Origin: a plasmid
Direction: 5' to 3' (one strand)
Length of the DNA stretch: 64,000 nucleotides
Sequence record: NZ_CP067021.1
Numbering within the stretch: the stretch's first letter is position 1; every line of letters begins with the position of its first letter. Below are positions 46,301 through 64,000 of the stretch, piece by piece. Position numbers: made by a program.

Positions 46301-49300
46301 TGATGATGATTTTGAATCAACTGTTGAGGACTGCATGACCGATTTCATTGATACGTTTTTTGATGAAAAGAACTTGCCAGATGAACAAGAAATTAACACG
46401 TTCATGGAACTGCAGAAGAAGCTAATCAATTTGATTCTATGGTTCAGCCAAAAAGAACCAGATCTCAGACCATTAACACCAGAAACAACACAAGCCAGGC
46501 CTAAATTAGAGCTGATTAAGCGTGAATTGCGTTTATTTGAGGCCAATAAGTACAAGCCGACTATTGTTGGTACCGAAACAAATAAAAAGATCAATGAAGC
46601 GATCCTAAAGCGCGATGAAGATCTAAAGTCTGGCAACTACAAAGGTACCAAAAAACCACATCCACGGGTTCCTCACTGGAACTTTTACTGGTTGGGCAAA
46701 CGTGGTACCAAAGAAAAATGGGTTAACCATTGGATACCATTTCAGATTGTTGGCGGTGTGCCTAAAGAAAAAGGGCTCTAAGGAATAAGTTATTAATTAC
46801 GCAATGGTTGGGTAGTCTAAAAAATATTGGATTCCAACACTGATTCCGTAAAGCCAGTAAAAGCCCCATGAAATAAGAAAGAGCCCTATGTTGGCTCTTA
46901 TTTTGTTTTTGTAAATCTCAATTTTAACGCAGCGTGATTTTCACTTTACCAACACACTTTTTGTTTAGTGGGCGATTATTACTATCTACCCGTCTCAAAT
47001 AGCCACATTGACTACAAGCAAAAGTATCATTACCTGAATCATTCGTAAATTTAAGCCAAATGTGACCATTGCCATCGTCTATATCTGTTTTAACGTATTT
47101 ATCTAGATTCATGCTTAAACCTCTTAATAAGCTCACTCGATAATAACAATAGTTTTGCTTAGATAGTATTTTTCCAAAAGGAATTATTAGCAGATTTTAT
47201 ATGTTTTTTAAGAAAAGTTTTTGAGCGCTTTTATTTATTAAAATTGAATTATTAAGCAAGGAGTTATAAAGCATGGCTAAATCAATAGACCAGTTATGGA
47301 GTGAATTACAGCAGATTCAATTTGATGAATCTAATTCCTTACCATGCGAATTCCATATCTGGAATAAAGGTACATATCGCTATCAGATCCTAGATTGGTT
47401 TGAAGCAAATTCTGAAAATGGCGTATTAAGCTTGCAAGGCAAAACCCATAAAACATTATGGGAAGAGTTTGGCAACACCCCGATAAACAATGATGATGAA
47501 ATCGAAGAAGACTTTCATCTATGGGGCAAAGGTACAGACCGCTTCATTATCTGGCACTGGTTTGATGATCAATTAGAACACGGTGTAATTAGCTTAATTG
47601 AGAAAGGAGTTGCGTAATGGGATTATTTACTTGCCCTCACTGTAATAGTGATATTGATACTAACGATAAAAAGTCTGGCCATCAGGTGAATGATGTAATT
47701 CAAGAAACCTTTTGTTCTGTTGACTGCAGTATTGAATATCTGGTGCATAACTCACAAATGATTGCAGTAGATCAATACGGAAGTTTGCCATTAAGCAATG
47801 AAAACCTGAATGAATTCATTGAAGCATTTTCAAATGAGGGTGTTGAAGATGATGTCTTAGAACACATCAAAGCAGAACTCTGTTAAGTAGTCGCGCAGCT
47901 GCTCTAAACAACACTGACAATGGCATTTAAAAAAAGGGCTTAAATCAATTAAGCCCTTTTCATATTTATACGATAAGAAAACTTTCTAATGTTTTACCAG
48001 ATTCAATCTCACGATTTAACCAGGATGGACGTTTACCACGACCGGCCCACACTTCTTTGTGGTTATTCGGGTTGCGATATTTAGGATCTGCTTTAACCAC
48101 TGGCTTTTTATTTAATTTACGATTTTCGCCGTGCTCATTTAATTCAAGAATAGTTAAGCCTAATTCTTTAGCGATCTCAAACATTTTGAGATAACCATCA
48201 TCAAGGTTCCTATTCTCTACTACAACAATTTGGTTTTGTGCCTTTTTAATTAGGCATTCTAACTGGTCTTTACTTAGGTTTTCAATTTCCATAACTAAAC
48301 TCGAAAAGTTGGTTTTATCAAATATACATCAGTGCGTTTTGTTTACAACCGCATACGGTGAATTTAATTGATTAAAATATTCAACTTATTCCATGGCTAT
48401 TCTAATTTTTAAGCAAAAATTATTCCCACTTTAAATCCATTAAACTAAAAATACATTCAACCTGTTAGGTAAATTAATATGTACAAGTATCTCATGATGA
48501 ATCTTGCGATTAACGAAACATCAGCACTACCAATTGGTATCCGTATTTGTGATTTTAATATCGGCTTATATGTCTCTAAGAAAATTTCAGAAGTGCCAGC
48601 TTTGATGGCATTTGTTAATTACACCCTGTTTAAGTATTCAAGCTATGAGAGTGAAGAACTTGAAGACATTAAAACCTTATTAGAAGAACATGATTTTAAA
48701 ACTCGCTATGACTCTTGGGAAATCAGCGGTGATTCTTTTTACGTTTTGGGTTTTAAAGAAATTACAAAAGACGAGTTTGAGTTATTGCAAAAACTTGACC
48801 TGTTGACCGTGGTAGACGAATACAACTACCACCATAAACTTTTGTCGAGTCATGGTGAGCATAAGTTTGACGAATATTTCAAAGACTTTAACGAGTCTAA
48901 AGAGCAAGAAATCTTAAAAAGGTTTAAAGACATTGCGTTCAATTTAAAAACTGACGACTCATTAAACACAGTGTTCGCCCAAGACGTTATAGAATTACTG
49001 ACTACCTACAAGTTTGGTACAGCTTTAGAACTAATCGACAGTAATCACAGCGATATTAGAAACCGTTTCTACTATAGCCACACGCTTGAGGGTGACTTTG
49101 CATCTGGAGCAATTCAGGTCATTATTTCAAATTATAAAGAAACTGGCGTTAAAGAGCCTTACACAGTGGTTGAACCTTTAAATATAGAAATCATGCTTGA
49201 AGAAGAACAATGCTTTGATGATGAATATGCAAATCTACTGACTGAATGCCAGTATGTATTAAACCTCATTAAAACCGACTTATACACCAACACTTTTGAA

Positions 49301-61300: not shown

Positions 61301-64000
61301 GTTTAAAGGCATTAAATTATTCAAGTGCTGGAATGAAGCTACCGCGGATCTCGTGTTAAATGCCGTAAAAGGCGCAATCAAGGGTAATCGTTACGAAATA
61401 CCAGACGTTAAAAAAAGCAAAAAGTTTGCTGTTGATAGCTGGGTAAGAAACATTGATCTAAAGTTTCTACATTTGCCAGTCGGTCAACTCACCAACCTGT
61501 ACAGGGAACATCAAGAGCGTTTAAGACTGAAGCGTGAAAAAGCCAGACTTAAAGAAAATGAAAACACGTATGACGTAGAACCGCACTAATCACACCCACC
61601 AGGAATAAGCACCCATAGCTTATTCCTTTCATAAGATGATGGCCGTAAACGGTGTTTTTAATTGATTAAAAATAACTTGAAATCATGAGCCTATCAGCCG
61701 AAATACTTTTACTGAAAAGTTATACAGGCCACATGCACCGATATAATGAATACATCAAAGCTCATTGCTTAAAACTTGGAGATACGACAATGCAACTACA
61801 AAAATTTAATACTGGTACTGCTAATGTGCGCCACTTGCTACAAAGCTTCACCCAAGCGTATGACGGTTTACCAAGTTGCGTCATCAATGTGATTGGCGTA
61901 GCAACCAAAGCAGATCCGCAGTTTATTTTTAACATTGAACTGGATGTCGTTTTATTTCACCAACATAAGTCACAAGCCTACTGCATTGAAGTCAATGCAC
62001 CGTTACAGGTTCAAGCCATCGCAGACGCTCACGAATCATTTAGATTCAGTCCTGATGATTCTCATGCATTGATTGAGGGCGAAGTCATGGATGTGGCGAT
62101 AAATTTACAACACCAAGCCATTAATGACATGATTCAATATGATTTGCTGTCAGATGCAGAACTGGAAAAGTTCAATACATGGAATAAAGGTTTCGCCAGT
62201 GCATTACTGACTGAATGTTTTGAAGATGTCGCAGATTTTAATGCGCTGCATAGCTCACATTTTATGGCGAACACTGTTTATTTAAGACTGATTGAGTACT
62301 TTAAAAACAACCTGTCATAAGAAACCATTAAACAAATAGAGGGAGATCCAATAAAGGTCTACCCTCTTTTTTTATGCCTTTAGATTTTATGACGTATACG
62401 ATGTTTTTTAATTGATTAAAAAAATATTGGAATTTTTCATTGCCAGTTCCATAAGTAATTTGAGAAAAGTTTTTAAGGGATATTTCACAAATATAATTAA
62501 TTCATACCTAAGCAATTGCTTATAACTTGGAGTTGAAGATATGAAAAGCCTACTTGATTTTTTTACAAACCGTTCTAAAACATTAAACATTATTGTGAAT
62601 CCTGAATTAAATACAGGTCATTCCCTTGCTGATTTTTCGTATAACGAAGAATTGCATCAAGACCTTAATGTATTAACGGTTATTCCGCTTGATCATTACG
62701 GAAACTTTCTATCTTTAACCCTTGATGATTGGGGCGTTATTACTTCAAAAGTTCAATTCCCTGAGCATCTTGATTTTAATCAATTGCTCAGCATTTTTTG
62801 GGAAACACAACCCATTTTAGTTGTTACTGACATCGCACGTTCAGAAGTGCATGACAGCGACTTTTTTCAACAAAGCTTGGTCAAGCAAGTCAATCTTGCA
62901 TATAGCCGAGATATTGCCAGTGAATATGCACCAGAAGATGTTCACTACATCTCTCAATCTTTTGATTTAGATAAGCTGATGCGTTGCGGTGTATATCTGC
63001 AAGGTCATTGCTATTCAGCTCATGATTTCGTCATTAACAACCATAACCTATTTGAAAAAGACAGCTTGATTGTGCCTGTTTTTAACATCCACTCGACACA
63101 AAAAGAACTGCAACAATTTTTAGTATTTGATCTGCAAGGTAAGTTTTTGGATTGCGTTGTTGGCACTGAAGTTTTGTACTAAGGAATATTGATCATGTCT
63201 AAAAAATACTTATTGATTGAATTGAGCTACGAAGCACCAAACAACACCAGTGCTGATGCTGTTTTGCACAATGTCTATATTGATATTAATCACCCTGAAA
63301 ATCTGGCGATGTTTAGCGAGTCTTGCAAGAATCGCCATGAAATTAATGAAAACCTACCCATTTGCCAGTTAATCACTTCATGGGTTCGATTACTAGGGAT
63401 CTTCACCATTCTGGACAATACGGATCAGGACAAAGAAACCCCTGTTCTCATTCAACTTGCTGACGGCGGTACTTTATCTATCGATGGTTGGGAAATTCTC
63501 GACCAAGAAACCAAAGATAGACGCTTGGCGTTAATGGACATTGAGCCAGATGAAGAACAAGACGTAGACGACCCTATTTTGTTCGCTTATGAGCATTCAG
63601 ACTCAATCACACTCACCAAAGTTGAAAAGCCAGTAGCAGAAAGTGTATATGTCGCTACGCGTAACTCTTACAGCAACAACTTTGATTTAGTTCTTGAATG
63701 TATCTTGAATCCTGAAAAACATTACAGCCTATATCAAGGCTCATATGATGGCACTCATGTTCAAGTGATCCTGAATGACTTGGCACTACTACCATCATGT
63801 AAGACACATAAATCAGAAATTGGCGACTATGTAACATGCAATGTACTGGAGCTGTTCAAAGGCTCAATAGATGCGTATGGCGCAGAAAATGAATTTATTG
63901 ATTCATTCGTGCAACTCGACATTACACCGTACTTAGATAGCACACTGAAAATGGACTACACCGAATTGCAGTTTAGCTACCAGAGCAACGATCTCATTGC

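What the first reader, a model, noticed from the sequence alone, without database searches (positions are those of the whole stretch)
48363..62421. Recurrent 16-bp palindrome TTTTAATTGATTAAAA (often preceded by ACGATG) in at least eight intergenic regions of the small-gene island
Seen in sequence:
- Occurrences at 48363, 49363, 54878, 56250, 58160, 59431, 61656 and 62406.
- All are intergenic, usually just after a terminator hairpin and about 100-150 bp before the next start codon.
- They share conserved flanks (TATACGATG...ATATTTTCAA) and are often followed by a second conserved box, TTGAGAAAAGTTTTT (58195, 62458; variants at 47215, 54915, 59468).

Inference:
- A dedicated operator for a plasmid-encoded global repressor (a KorA/KorB-like regulon, or binding sites for the H-NS-like protein at 47966-48292).
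- Alternatively these are single-strand promoter or origin-like elements of a leading region.
Basis: seen in the sequence. Interest (0 to 1): 0.7.

Follow-up and report, generated by a model that had tools for sequence, protein, structure and literature searches.

The report
Shared operator of a megaplasmid gene island
A 16-base near-palindrome with a conserved neighbouring box sits in front of at least 13 small transcription units in one island of a widespread multidrug-resistance Acinetobacter megaplasmid and survives in distant relatives, so it is most likely the binding site of a still-unidentified regulator that switches the whole island together.

Summary
TTTTAATTGATTAAAA occurs at 8 window sites (6 exact, 2 with one mismatch). 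All are intergenic and on the gene strand, against 0.62 expected by chance.

The window belongs to the Acinetobacter III-4a megaplasmid family (pXBB1-9/pALWED1.1). Whole pXBB1-9 (398 kb) has 13 sites, all within one co-oriented island of small, mostly acidic ORFan genes.

The element is composite: AAAACGYATACGRTG, then 0-4 nt, then TTTTAATTG-N-TTAAAA. It lies between the upstream terminator and a shared promoter (T/A-rich box plus TAnAAT, no canonical -35), followed by a covarying 5'-UTR hairpin and AAAACTTGGAG.

Three divergent lineages (proteins 26-76% identical) keep the element upstream of orthologous genes. In L077 it is the only intergenic sequence that BLAST still detects.

- **Best reading:** operator of a family-specific regulon for an establishment or anti-defence-like island.
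- **Regulator:** unidentified. Pfam finds no HTH or RHH protein.
- **Direction of control:** repression versus activation is unresolved.
- **Not supported:** the ssDNA-promoter and ParB/KorB readings.
- **H-NS:** unlikely as the specific binder, although its own promoter carries a site.

This is a new member of a known kind and is not described in the literature searched.

The parts
48346..48377 (+). Composite element 1: left box (CAACCGCATACGGTG), 1-nt spacer, palindrome ATTTAATTGATTAAAA (1 mismatch). Lies in the divergent hns / 274-aa gene intergenic region.
   Evidence: The orthologous site is exact in the divergent lineage L077 (5237-5252).
49344..49378 (+). Composite element 2: AAAACGTAAACGATG, TTTT spacer, exact palindrome.
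   Evidence: Ortholog in L077 at 6221 (1 mismatch).
54861..54893 (+). Composite element 3: TAATCTGTATACGATA, GC spacer, exact palindrome. A hairpin plus T-run follows at 54894-54921.
56234..56265 (+). Composite element 4: AAAACGTATACGATG, A spacer, exact palindrome.
58144..58175 (+). Composite element 5: TAACCGCTTACGATG, A spacer, TTTTAATTGGTTAAAA (1 mismatch at the variable position 10).
   Evidence: The orthologous site carries a different single mismatch in other family members.
59414..59446 (+). Composite element 6: AAACCGCAAGCGATG, TT spacer, exact palindrome.
61640..61671 (+). Composite element 7: TGGCCGTAAACGGTG, T spacer, exact palindrome.
62389..62421 (+). Composite element 8: ATGACGTATACGATG, TT spacer, exact palindrome.
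   Evidence: Orthologous gene-site link in L079 (14299) and L082 (3283).
48406..48446 (+). Predicted promoter of the 274-aa gene: T/A-rich box (TTTTTAAGCAAAAAT) and -10 TAAACT (48441-48446).
   Evidence: Read from sequence. Not mapped experimentally.
49449..49489 (+). Predicted promoter: TTTTTTAAAAAAACTTTA box and -10 TATAAT (49484-49489).
54920..54957 (+). Predicted promoter: TTGAGAAAAATTTAT box and -10 TAAAAT (54952-54957).
56341..56346 (+). Predicted -10 TAAAAT of the 280-aa gene operon.
58197..58234 (+). Predicted promoter: exact TTGAGAAAAGTTTTT box, 17 nt, then -10 TATACT (58229-58234).
59468..59505 (+). Predicted promoter: TTTGAATAAGTTTTT box and -10 TAAAAT. The consensus scan also lists TTGACA-16-AATGAT at 59481-59508.
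61707..61747 (+). Predicted promoter: TTTTACTGAAAAGTTA box and -10 TATAAT (61742-61747).
62460..62497 (+). Predicted promoter: exact TTGAGAAAAGTTTTT box, 17 nt, then -10 TATAAT (62492-62497).
49501..49524 (+). 5'-UTR hairpin (AAGC/GCTT stem) plus AAAATTTGGAG Shine-Dalgarno block.
50865..50889 (+). The same hairpin (GAGC/GCTC) plus SD block before an operon-internal gene (50895).
56358..56380 (+). 5'-UTR hairpin (AAGC/GCTT) plus AAAACTTGGAG.
57601..57624 (+). Hairpin (GGC/GCC) plus AAAACTTGGAG before the operon-internal gene at 57630.
58251..58274 (+). 5'-UTR hairpin (AGGC/GCCT) plus TAAATCTGGAG.
60562..60584 (+). Hairpin plus AAAACATGGAG before the DUF6573 gene. This promoter has the T/A box but no palindrome in this lineage; L082 has one.
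61758..61781 (+). 5'-UTR hairpin (AAGC/GCTT) plus AAAACTTGGAG.
62510..62532 (+). 5'-UTR hairpin (AAGC/GCTT) plus ATAACTTGGAG.
47966..48292 (-). H-NS family gene. Its predicted promoter (-35 TTGTAA 48348-48343, -10 TATATT 48326-48321) abuts element 1, placing the palindrome centre about 55 nt upstream of its predicted start.
   Evidence: Pfam. Promoter scan. Promoter blocks and palindrome conserved in L077.
48479..49303 (+). Transcription unit 1 (274-aa ORFan).
49532..51320 (+). Transcription unit 2 (142-, 297- and 141-aa ORFans).
54999..56136 (+). Transcription unit 3 (187- and 176-aa ORFans).
56388..58106 (+). Transcription unit 4 (280-, 104- and 158-aa ORFans).
58283..59380 (+). Transcription unit 5 (365-aa PAPS-reductase-like protein).
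   Evidence: phrog_424 at 1.7e-27. 1453 homologues.
59529..59876 (+). Transcription unit 6 (115-aa acidic ORFan).
61790..62320 (+). Transcription unit 7 (176-aa ORFan). A 66%-identical DNA paralogue cassette, also flanked by palindromes, occurs in other family members.
62541..64000 (+). Transcription unit 8 (213-aa gene, then a 277-aa gene cut by the window end; a 202-aa zinc-ribbon protein follows in pXBB1-9).

Best explanation
The palindrome is the core of a roughly 35-45-bp composite cis-regulatory element: AAAACGYATACGRTG, 0-4 nt, TTTTAATTG-N-TTAAAA, often followed by GGTTTTGRAA. It marks the upstream edge of at least 13 promoter regions in one co-oriented island of small, mostly acidic ORFan genes of the Acinetobacter III-4a megaplasmids.

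**Proposed mechanism (inferred).**
1. A dimeric sequence-specific DNA-binding protein, most likely plasmid-encoded and of a family Pfam does not recognise, binds the two half-sites.
2. The left box acts as an auxiliary contact or a second site.
3. This couples all these promoters into one regulon.
4. In an established plasmid the protein keeps the island's promoters down.
5. On entry into a plasmid-free cell the sites are empty. The promoters (T/A-rich UP-like box plus good -10) and the standardised 5'-UTR hairpin with strong Shine-Dalgarno then give a burst of establishment or anti-defence proteins, until the regulator accumulates.

**Shown here.**
- Existence of the element, its strand and its intergenic position.
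- Restriction to the island and to this plasmid clade.
- Modular architecture.
- Conservation in front of orthologous genes across deep divergence.

**Inferred.**
- Protein binding.
- The sign of regulation.
- The plasmid origin of the regulator.
- The establishment or leading-region role of the island.
For: 1. **Non-random and position-specific.** There are 8 sites in the window against 0.62 expected. Whole pXBB1-9 has 13 sites, all intergenic and all on the strand of the genes. Apart from one 1-mismatch copy at 57350, nothing else in the 398 kb matches at up to 1 mismatch, including about 200 kb of accessory Acinetobacter DNA.
2. **Conserved motif in dissimilar surroundings.** The paralogous intergenic regions are only 49% identical on average, while the 16-mer and left box are near-invariant.
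3. **Deep conservation.**
   - L077, L079 and L082 carry 2, 6 and 4 sites on the gene strand.
   - At up to 1 mismatch, L079 has 5 against 0.02 expected and L082 has 4 against 0.00.
   - Their proteins are 26-76% identical to the window lineage.
   - In L077 the left box plus palindrome is the only intergenic sequence BLAST still detects.
   - Gene-site links persist at 34-45% protein identity. These cover the 213-aa, 135-aa, 382-aa, 274-aa and 142-aa families.
4. **Promoter-proximal position.** 24 of 27 sites are followed within about 90-250 nt by a co-directional gene. That gene has a shared T/A box, a TAnAAT -10 and a UTR hairpin plus SD.
5. **Clade-restricted.** The composite pattern hits only this plasmid family in 185,579 species genomes and in JGI metagenomes, apart from single chance hits.
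6. **Island character.** The island has many proteins of pI 4.1-4.7. It also contains H-NS, Fic, PAPS-reductase-like and DUF6573 genes, and is flanked by SprT-like, SNF2-helicase and CasE-like genes. All genes are co-oriented, as described for leading-region anti-defence islands (PMC11541004).
7. **Functional precedents.** Reg576 operators on p576 (PMC6294495) and CUP/ArdK on IncN plasmids (PMC6289460).
Against: - **No regulator found.** Pfam found no HTH or RHH in the island proteins or in 87 small backbone ORFs. The one candidate I favoured, a 51-aa ORF behind a site, is a plain three-helix bundle with no DNA-binding match.
- **Atypical position for a repressor.** The site centre lies about 52-126 nt upstream of the predicted start sites at variable distance, with no significant helical phasing (R = 0.49, p about 0.07). 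This is atypical for a simple steric repressor.
- **Orphan sites.** Three sites (L031 4128, L015 3793, L079 11218) are followed by a convergent gene, so they have no promoter to control.
- **No power within the family.** At 95-99% identity the palindrome is no less variable than its flanks (11/193 against 126/2465 columns).
- **Unmapped promoters.** Promoters and start sites are predictions only. The generic sigma-70 scan finds no excess of promoters in the island (39 against 57 expected).
- **Unknown transfer origin.** oriT and the relaxase are unknown for this family (PMC8490738), so 'leading region' is unproven.
Confidence: 0.6

Rival explanations
1. The element is an upstream activator site. 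A host- or plasmid-encoded activator bound at the palindrome recruits RNA polymerase, through alpha-CTD contacts with the intervening T/A-rich box, to promoters that cannot fire alone because they lack a -35.
For: - The shared promoters have a good -10 but GTTTTT-like sequence where the -35 should be. TTGAGA lies 26 nt from the -10, too far to serve as the -35.
- Site centres fall about 52-126 nt upstream of the predicted starts, the range used by class I activators.
- The T/A box sits between the site and the core promoter.
Against: - No significant helical phasing after the offset correction.
- Several island promoters have the same T/A box, -10 and UTR but no palindrome (47208, 52443, about 60530). 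The core promoter therefore does not obviously need the site.
- A plasmid-encoded activator would be absent at the moment of entry.
- No candidate protein was found.
Confidence: 0.17
2. The sites are nucleation or high-affinity sites for the plasmid's H-NS paralogue (47966-48292). H-NS spreads from them and silences the AT-rich island. The regulon is H-NS-based, with no dedicated transcription factor.
For: - H-NS is the only recognised DNA-binding protein in the island apart from a cold-shock-domain protein.
- The hns gene and a palindrome next to its promoter are conserved together in the divergent L077 lineage.
- Variable distance to promoters and promoter-less 'orphan' sites are easier to accept for a spreading silencer.
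Against: - H-NS-type C-terminal domains read the AT-rich minor groove with low specificity. A 16-bp sequence kept exact at 11 of 13 sites, and across lineages, is not expected.
- The composite does not match the published high-affinity motif tCG(t/a)T(a/t)AATT (PMC2094087; alignment).
- The island is no more AT-rich than the rest of the backbone.
- A site in the hns promoter fits equally well with hns being a target of the regulon.
Confidence: 0.1
3. The composite element is a cassette-junction recombination site. It would be site-specific, or simply a repeat used by homologous recombination, that shuffles self-contained expression cassettes within the island.
For: - The element is long (about 35-45 bp), directional, and present once per junction between transcription units.
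- Unit order differs between lineages. For example, DUF6573 is far from the PAPS-reductase gene in L082 but adjacent to it in the window and L079.
- An extra three-gene cassette in L031 and L057 is flanked by two sites.
- Three sites sit at unit ends with no downstream gene.
- The CGTATA core resembles part of XerC half-sites. This resemblance is from memory and was not tested.
Against: - Spacing between the left box and the palindrome varies by 0-4 nt, which is incompatible with a fixed recombinase core such as the 11-6-11 dif architecture.
- All sites are direct repeats, not alternating.
- No recombinase lies in or next to the island.
- The structural differences seen within the family map to IS or transposon insertions away from the sites.
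Confidence: 0.07
4. The elements are single-strand promoters or priming sites (Frpo/ssi-like) used on the transferred strand of a leading region.
For: - All sites and genes share one strand, as in leading regions (PMC11541004).
- The island looks like an establishment region.
Against: - Template-strand folds of six modules are no more stable than shuffles (z from -1.71 to +1.09). They contain only the weak 7-bp A/T hairpin and no long stem rebuilding -35/-10.
- The modules are 115-146 nt, without the extended imperfect hairpin of Frpo.
Confidence: 0.02
5. The sites are KorB/ParB-type operators: the partition protein doubles as a global silencer acting at a distance.
For: Multiple sites at variable distances from promoters resemble KorB class II operators. 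This comparison is from memory of the IncP literature.
Against: - The ParA/ParB locus of pXBB1-9 is preceded by 16 tandem 46-47-bp repeats. Each carries a different palindrome, TTATCAG(T/C)CTGATAA, the expected centromere.
- The sequence is unrelated to the IncP OB and OA operators.
- No second ParB-like protein was detected among the ORFs scanned. Large ORFs were not all scanned.
Confidence: 0.03

Closest known systems
CUP (conserved upstream) elements and the ArdK repressor of IncN plasmids (pKM101/R46)
   Same: - A repeated conserved element lies upstream of several genes of an establishment or anti-restriction region.
- One plasmid-encoded regulator acts on all copies.
- The regulator's own expression is tied to one copy (PMC6289460, citing Delver & Belogurov 1997).
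   Different: - The sequence is different.
- No ArdK-like or any HTH protein was detected here.
- The site lies further upstream of the predicted promoters.
- The host genus and plasmid backbone are different (MPF_I megaplasmid).
- oriT is unknown, so the leading-region position is unproven.
Reg576 regulon of Bacillus plasmid p576 (establishment genes)
   Same: - A cluster of co-oriented putative establishment genes of unknown function sits next to an ArdC-like gene.
- Each promoter carries the same short operator.
- The proposed logic is a burst after transfer followed by re-repression (PMC6294495).
   Different: - Reg576 operators are dual direct heptamers (TTATCCC) abutting or inside the core promoter, bound by an RHH tetramer.
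- Here the core is a 16-bp inverted repeat plus a side box, 50-125 nt upstream.
- No RHH protein was found here.
- There are four promoters in p576 and at least 13 here.
KorA/KorB operators of IncP-1 plasmids
   Same: Palindromic operators are repeated at many promoters of a plasmid, some acting from a distance, giving global coordinate control.
   Different: - The sequence is unrelated.
- The plasmid's ParB appears to have a different centromere palindrome.
- The sites are confined to one accessory-looking island and do not cover replication, partition and transfer operons.
Frpo/ssi single-strand promoters of F and IncI leading regions
   Same: Repeated non-coding elements lie in front of co-oriented early genes of an establishment region.
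   Different: There is no extended single-strand hairpin. The elements look like ordinary double-strand promoter regions with an upstream protein-binding site.

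Membership tests
Plasmid regulon operator (generic: one transcription-factor site repeated at many promoters of a plasmid) | The same short sequence occurs at many promoter regions, far above chance, and is absent from coding DNA. | tested here: met
   8 sites against 0.62 expected; 13 intergenic sites in the 398-kb plasmid; the only other match at up to 1 mismatch is one 1-mismatch copy at 57350; divergent lineages.
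Plasmid regulon operator (generic) | The site is conserved in front of orthologous genes while the surrounding non-coding DNA diverges. | tested here: met
   kept at 34-57% protein identity. In L077 it is the only intergenic BLAST match.
Plasmid regulon operator (generic) | An identified cognate DNA-binding protein. | tested here: not met
   Searches found no HTH or RHH; the 51-aa candidate was rejected.
Plasmid regulon operator (generic) | Binding changes transcription of the downstream genes. | not testable with these tools
   Needs reporter fusions, EMSA or RNA-seq.
IncP KorB (OB) / KorA (OA) operators | Operator sequence TTTAGC(G/C)GCTAAA or GTTTAGCTAAAC (from memory of the IncP literature). 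| tested here: not met
   Direct reading of the 27 aligned sites.
IncP KorB (OB) / KorA (OA) operators | The operator is the binding site of the plasmid's ParB-family partition protein. | tested here: not met
   16 tandem repeats with TTATCAG(T/C)CTGATAA lie upstream of parA. ParB binding itself was not assayed.
IncN CUP / ArdK regulon | A repeated conserved upstream element carries a promoter in front of establishment genes. | tested here: met
   (architecture only).
IncN CUP / ArdK regulon | An ArdK homologue is encoded on the plasmid, and the sequence is similar to the CUP consensus. | not tested
   No ArdK or CUP sequence was at hand. No Pfam HTH was found in the island.
Frpo / ssi single-strand promoter | A long imperfect hairpin in the transferred single strand rebuilds the -35 and -10 boxes. 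| tested here: not met
   z from -1.71 to +1.09 for six modules.
pdif / XerC-XerD sites of Acinetobacter dif modules | Fixed 11-6-11 architecture with alternating orientation around modules (from memory; PMC6449649 describes dif modules). | tested here: not met
   spacer varies by 0-4 nt; all sites are in one orientation.
H-NS high-affinity nucleation site | Match to tCG(t/a)T(a/t)AATT (PMC2094087). | tested here: not met
   Reading. CGATG and AATT are separated by 5-9 nt, so there is no contiguous match.
REP / MITE-type dispersed repeats | Dispersed over the replicon or genome, independent of gene orientation. | tested here: not met
   confined to one island, always on the gene strand; confined to one plasmid clade.

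The most novel reading that the evidence does not exclude
The island is a self-contained, standardised expression system for incoming-plasmid genes, with three proposed layers.
- **Transcription:** a transcription factor of an undescribed fold binds the composite palindrome.
- **RNA:** the orphan CasE/Cas6e-like protein at the head of the island (44914-45621) binds or cleaves the covarying hairpin that precedes AAAACTTGGAG in about 15 island mRNAs. Its homologue P0049 lies in a type IV CRISPR-like locus (L078).
- **Consequence:** a CRISPR repeat-processing nuclease would have been co-opted for mRNA maturation or translational control of an anti-defence arsenal.
Probability: 0.1. Interest if true: 0.8.

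Novelty: new member of a known kind. Interest (0 to 1): 0.5.

Why it matters
III-4a megaplasmids spread NDM-1, OXA-58, PER-1 and other resistance genes across many Acinetobacter species. Even so, their relaxase and oriT have not been found (PMC8490738). The two family papers checked mention no operators or promoters.

A single conserved element that ties together at least 13 transcription units of ORFan, largely acidic proteins gives three practical handles.
- **Bait:** it can be used for DNA-affinity capture of the unknown regulator.
- **Gene set:** it defines a coherent set of candidate establishment or anti-defence functions to test.
- **Marker:** together with the island-specific 5'-UTR signal, it recognises this clade and its divergent relatives in metagenomes.

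If the regulator proves to be a repressor, removing it or titrating it with decoy sites could impose a cost on the plasmid or alter its transfer.

Tried and rejected
1. **Single-strand promoter idea.** I folded six modules as ssDNA; none was more stable than shuffles.
2. **ParB/KorB idea.** A separate centromere-like repeat array carries another palindrome.
3. **51-aa ORF as the repressor.** This ORF (pXBB1-9 185214-185369) looked like an RHH repressor from its sequence pattern. AlphaFold gives a confident three-helix bundle (pLDDT 93) with no significant PDB match.
4. **Basic 160-aa island protein (61107-61589).** The model was poor (pLDDT 52) and unusable.
5. **Pfam screen.** I screened 87 small backbone ORFs and about 45 island or relative proteins and found no HTH or RHH. 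The exceptions were transposases, a HicB-HTH present only in L079, and weak sub-threshold hits.
6. **79/80-aa protein.** It heads the island in L073 and L077 and has a weak HARE-HTH hit. It has no homologue in the window or in pXBB1-9.
7. **Helical phasing between palindrome and -10.** My first result (p about 0.013) rested on a miscounted offset. Corrected, it is not significant.
8. **Purifying selection within the family.** At 95-99% identity there is no power.
9. **Rfam.** No hits in 44-64 kb.
10. **General antisense promoter at the element.** Only the hns site, and weakly 56250 and 58160, look promoter-like on the minus strand.
11. **PLSDB search for the divergent L079 lineage.** No record was found; only the III-4a family matches, at about 73%.
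12. **Literature search for the 16-mer.** The string search found nothing, and the two family papers do not mention such a motif.

Full report
**1. The observation**

The 16-mer TTTTAATTGATTAAAA was searched at up to 2 mismatches and occurs at eight places in the window.
- Six sites are exact: 49363, 54878, 56250, 59431, 61656 and 62406.
- Two have one mismatch: 48362 (ATTT...) and 58160 (...TTGG...).
- Dinucleotide shuffles expect 0.62 strand-matches against the 14 observed (0 of 100 shuffles).

The motif is a 7-nt inverted repeat around an asymmetric TG. All eight sites read TG on the + strand, which is the strand of the downstream genes. Nothing at up to 2 mismatches exists in the other 48 kb of the window.

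All sites are intergenic, 98-169 nt before the next start codon. Seven follow a co-directional gene and usually its terminator-like hairpin. The eighth, at 48362, lies between the divergent H-NS gene and a 274-aa gene.

The right flank ATATTTTCAA holds at only two or three sites. The second box is exact at 58197 and 62460.

**2. Where the window comes from and how far the motif extends**

The region is 95-99% identical to 70 plasmid records, 64 of them from Acinetobacter. The best match is pXBB1-9 of A. johnsonii XBB1 at 99.3%. This is the III-4a megaplasmid family (prototype pALWED1.1).
- It has an MPF_I (Dot/Icm-like) transfer system.
- Neither a relaxase nor oriT has been found (PMC8490738).
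- The two family papers checked mention no palindromes, operators or promoters, and the 16-mer string is absent from the paper library.

I fetched all 398,857 bp of pXBB1-9. It holds 13 strong sites, 11 exact and 2 with one mismatch. All are intergenic and all on the gene strand.
- They lie at 141.7-143.8 kb and 184.7-207.5 kb.
- The only other match at up to 1 mismatch is a 1-mismatch copy at 57350.
- The two stretches are separated in pXBB1-9 by accessory insertions.
- The IS30-aph(3')-VIa insertion inside the second stretch is absent in other family members, where the flanking island DNA joins directly.

The ancestral state is therefore probably one island of roughly 30 kb with nearly all genes co-oriented.

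The composite pattern CGATG-N1-5-TTTTAATTGATTAAAA was scanned in 185,579 species genomes and in JGI metagenomes. It hits only contigs 95% or more identical to this family, plus isolated single hits in unrelated DNA.

**3. Anatomy of the module**

I aligned 27 sites from four lineages. The order of parts is:
1. terminator of the preceding unit;
2. left box AAAACGYATACGRTG, whose core CGTATACG is itself palindromic at some sites;
3. 0-4 nt, mostly T;
4. TTTTAATTG-N-TTAAAA, with position 10 variable;
5. often GGTTTTGRAA;
6. a variable stretch;
7. a T/A-rich box (consensus TTTTTGAGAAAAGTTTTT);
8. 17 nt, then TAnAAT;
9. about 15 nt, then a 4-bp hairpin with a GC core;
10. (T)AAAACTTGGAG, then 5-9 nt, then ATG.

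TTGAGA lies 26 nt from the -10, so it cannot be the -35. The -35 position reads GTTTTT. The promoters therefore look dependent on an UP element or on an activator. These promoters are predictions. The generic sigma-70 scan finds no excess in the island.

The palindrome centre lies about 73-126 nt upstream of the predicted start sites in the window lineage. It is as close as about 52 nt at L082:1313.

An apparent 10.5-bp phasing came from a miscounted offset. Corrected, it is not significant (R = 0.49, p about 0.07).

Several island promoters (47208, 52443, about 60530) have the T/A box, the -10 and the UTR signal but no palindrome.

**4. Deep conservation**

Within the family, at 95-99% identity, there is no power. 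Palindrome columns vary as often as flanks (11/193 against 126/2465).

Divergent relatives were reached through homologues of two window proteins.

| Locus | Relation to the window | Sites found | Statistics |
|---|---|---|---|
| L077 | Syntenic with window 43.5-52 kb | Exact palindrome between hns and the 271-aa gene; 1-mismatch copy before the 142-aa gene. These are the orthologues of sites 48362 and 49363. | Left box plus palindrome is the only intergenic similarity BLAST detects. |
| L079 | 21 kb seen of a 223-kb metagenome contig | 6 sites | 5 at up to 1 mismatch against 0.02 expected. |
| L082 | 21 kb seen of a 41-kb contig | 4 sites | 4 at up to 1 mismatch against 0.00 expected. |

All of these sites are on the gene strand, and each is preceded by the left box. 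Proteins of these loci are 26-76% identical to the window lineage.

The link between site and gene is kept for several families:
- the 213-aa family: window 62406, L079 14299, L082 3283;
- the 135-aa family;
- the 382-aa phrog_10079 family;
- the 274-aa and 142-aa families.

The still more distant L073 and L081 stretches lack the motif.

This is the strongest evidence that the element is functional and tied to the genes downstream.

**5. What the island is**

Almost all products are ORFans. Many are strongly acidic, with pI 4.1-4.7.

Recognisable genes within the island are:
- an H-NS paralogue;
- Fic;
- a cold-shock/Excalibur protein;
- DUF6573;
- a PAPS-reductase-like protein that is widespread on conjugative plasmids.

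The island is headed by a CasE-like gene and flanked by SprT-like and SNF2-helicase genes.

Co-orientation, acidity and this gene content resemble the anti-defence and establishment islands of leading regions (PMC11541004). With oriT unknown, that remains an inference.

**6. Mechanism and rivals**

The simplest reading is a transcription-factor site that couples at least 13 promoters.
- I favour a repressor giving a burst on entry. This is by analogy with Reg576 on p576 (PMC6294495) and CUP/ArdK on IncN plasmids (PMC6289460).
- The upstream position and the -35-less promoters make an activator a serious alternative.
- No regulator could be named. Pfam finds no HTH or RHH in the island or in 87 small backbone ORFs.
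- A 51-aa candidate turned out to be a plain three-helix bundle.
- Two conserved basic proteins outside the window remain untested candidates. These are the 202-aa zinc-ribbon protein and the 142-aa protein of pI 9.6.

H-NS as the specific binder is unlikely on general grounds, and the published high-affinity motif is absent (PMC2094087). Even so, hns and a site abutting its conserved promoter travel together. The gene is therefore probably part of the circuit.

The ParB/KorB reading is disfavoured by a separate centromere-like array. The ssDNA-promoter reading is disfavoured by folding.

A cassette-junction recombination role keeps a small probability.
- For: three sites have no downstream gene, and unit order differs between lineages.
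- Against: the variable spacer, the uniform orientation and the absence of a nearby recombinase.

**7. Side finding**

The hairpin plus AAAACTTGGAG signal is specific to the island.
- pXBB1-9 has about 15 copies, all within 141-206 kb on the gene strand.
- It precedes first genes and operon-internal genes alike.
- Its stem covaries among AAGC/GCTT, GAGC/GCTC, AGGC/GCCT and GGGC/GCCC.
- 97.9% of cells are paired. Seven cells carry compensatory double changes against 2.1 +/- 1.1 in shuffles (0 of 500).
- It is kept in L077, L079 and L082.

It may simply be a standardised strong translation-initiation region, in line with PMC13478746.

The gene heading the island encodes a divergent CasE/Cas6e-like protein.
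- Its G-rich loop LNGIGRDKTYGFGMIRL matches Cse3.
- Pfam PF08798 scores 5.7e-6.
- A 33%-identical homologue lies in a type IV CRISPR-like locus.

Whether this protein acts on the hairpins is speculation.

**8. Verdict**

The feature is real, conserved and undescribed. It is best filed as a new member of a known kind, a plasmid regulon operator for an establishment-type island. The regulator is unknown and the sign of control is unresolved.

Noticed in passing
window 49501-49524, 50865-50889, 56358-56380, 57601-57624, 58251-58274, 60562-60584, 61758-61781, 62510-62532; also pXBB1-9 141-206 kb, L077 8289, L079 (7 copies), L082 (5 copies): An island-specific translation-initiation signal: a 4-bp hairpin with a GC core and covarying outer pairs, directly followed by (T)AAAACTTGGAG and ATG 5-9 nt later. 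It is absent from the rest of the 398-kb plasmid. 97.9% of cells are paired, with 7 compensatory cells against 2.1 +/- 1.1 in shuffles. There is no Rfam match.
   Followed up: partly
window 44914-45621 (+): An orphan CasE/Cas6e-like protein heads the island, with no CRISPR array or other cas genes nearby. Pfam PF08798 scores 5.7e-6, and its G-rich loop matches Cse3 (5u07). Homologues at 57-60% identity hold the same position in L073 and L077. A 33%-identical homologue sits in a type IV CRISPR-like locus with Csf3, RAMP and a DinG-like helicase (L078). A possible link to the UTR hairpins is untested.
   Followed up: partly
window 47208-47222, 52443-52457, 54920-54934, 58197-58211, 62460-62474 and equivalents: A shared promoter box (T-run, GA(G/A)AAAAG, T-run) ends 17 nt upstream of a TAnAAT -10. 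The TTGAGA in it is 26 nt from the -10, so these promoters have no canonical -35. The box also occurs at promoters without the palindrome.
   Followed up: partly
L004 10366-11096 (pXBB1-9 110366-111096), upstream of parA: Sixteen tandem 46-47-bp repeats each carry the palindrome TTATCAG(T/C)CTGATAA. This is presumably the partition centromere of the megaplasmid.
   Followed up: partly
L031 4128-4143, L015 3793-3808, L079 11218-11233: Three 'orphan' copies of the composite element are followed by the end of a convergent gene instead of a promoter and co-directional gene. All three are exact in these loci; the copy orthologous to L031 4128 carries one mismatch in L057.
   Followed up: partly
window 48479-63182 and pXBB1-9 140-208 kb: Many island products are strongly acidic (pI 4.1-4.7) and have no Pfam or PHROG match. 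This is reminiscent of DNA-mimic anti-restriction proteins, but no structure was modelled.
   Followed up: no
window 58283-59380; L082 8753-11098: The 365-aa PAPS-reductase-like protein has 1453 homologues at E <= 1e-20, including records named from Shewanella, Aeromonas, Vibrio and Pseudomonas. By DNA it matches about 1300 plasmid records in Klebsiella, Salmonella, Escherichia and other genera. In L082 it sits directly after a DndB-family gene.
   Followed up: partly
window 53813-54853: A 70-aa ORF lies immediately upstream of the Fic gene, a layout that suggests an antitoxin-Fic toxin pair. In L079 the Fic domain is fused to AbiEii. This promoter has no palindrome.
   Followed up: no
window 31191-40272 (-): A block of large ORFs (1056, 642, 227 and 1091 aa) is not annotated at the corresponding position of pXBB1-9 (compare). 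It may be an accessory or defence module. It was not examined and no direct alignment was made.
   Followed up: no
window 12001-14000 and 16001-20000: GC-rich segments (49-59% GC against about 36% elsewhere), with duplicated IS-like matches around 800 and 13900. These are presumably acquired resistance or IS DNA.
   Followed up: no
window 56274-56246 and 58184-58156 (- strand): The consensus scan lists weak leftward promoter-like sites (TTGAAA-17-AATCAT) overlapping two palindromes. Together with the hns promoter next to site 48362, this hints that some sites could also affect antisense or divergent transcription.
   Followed up: no
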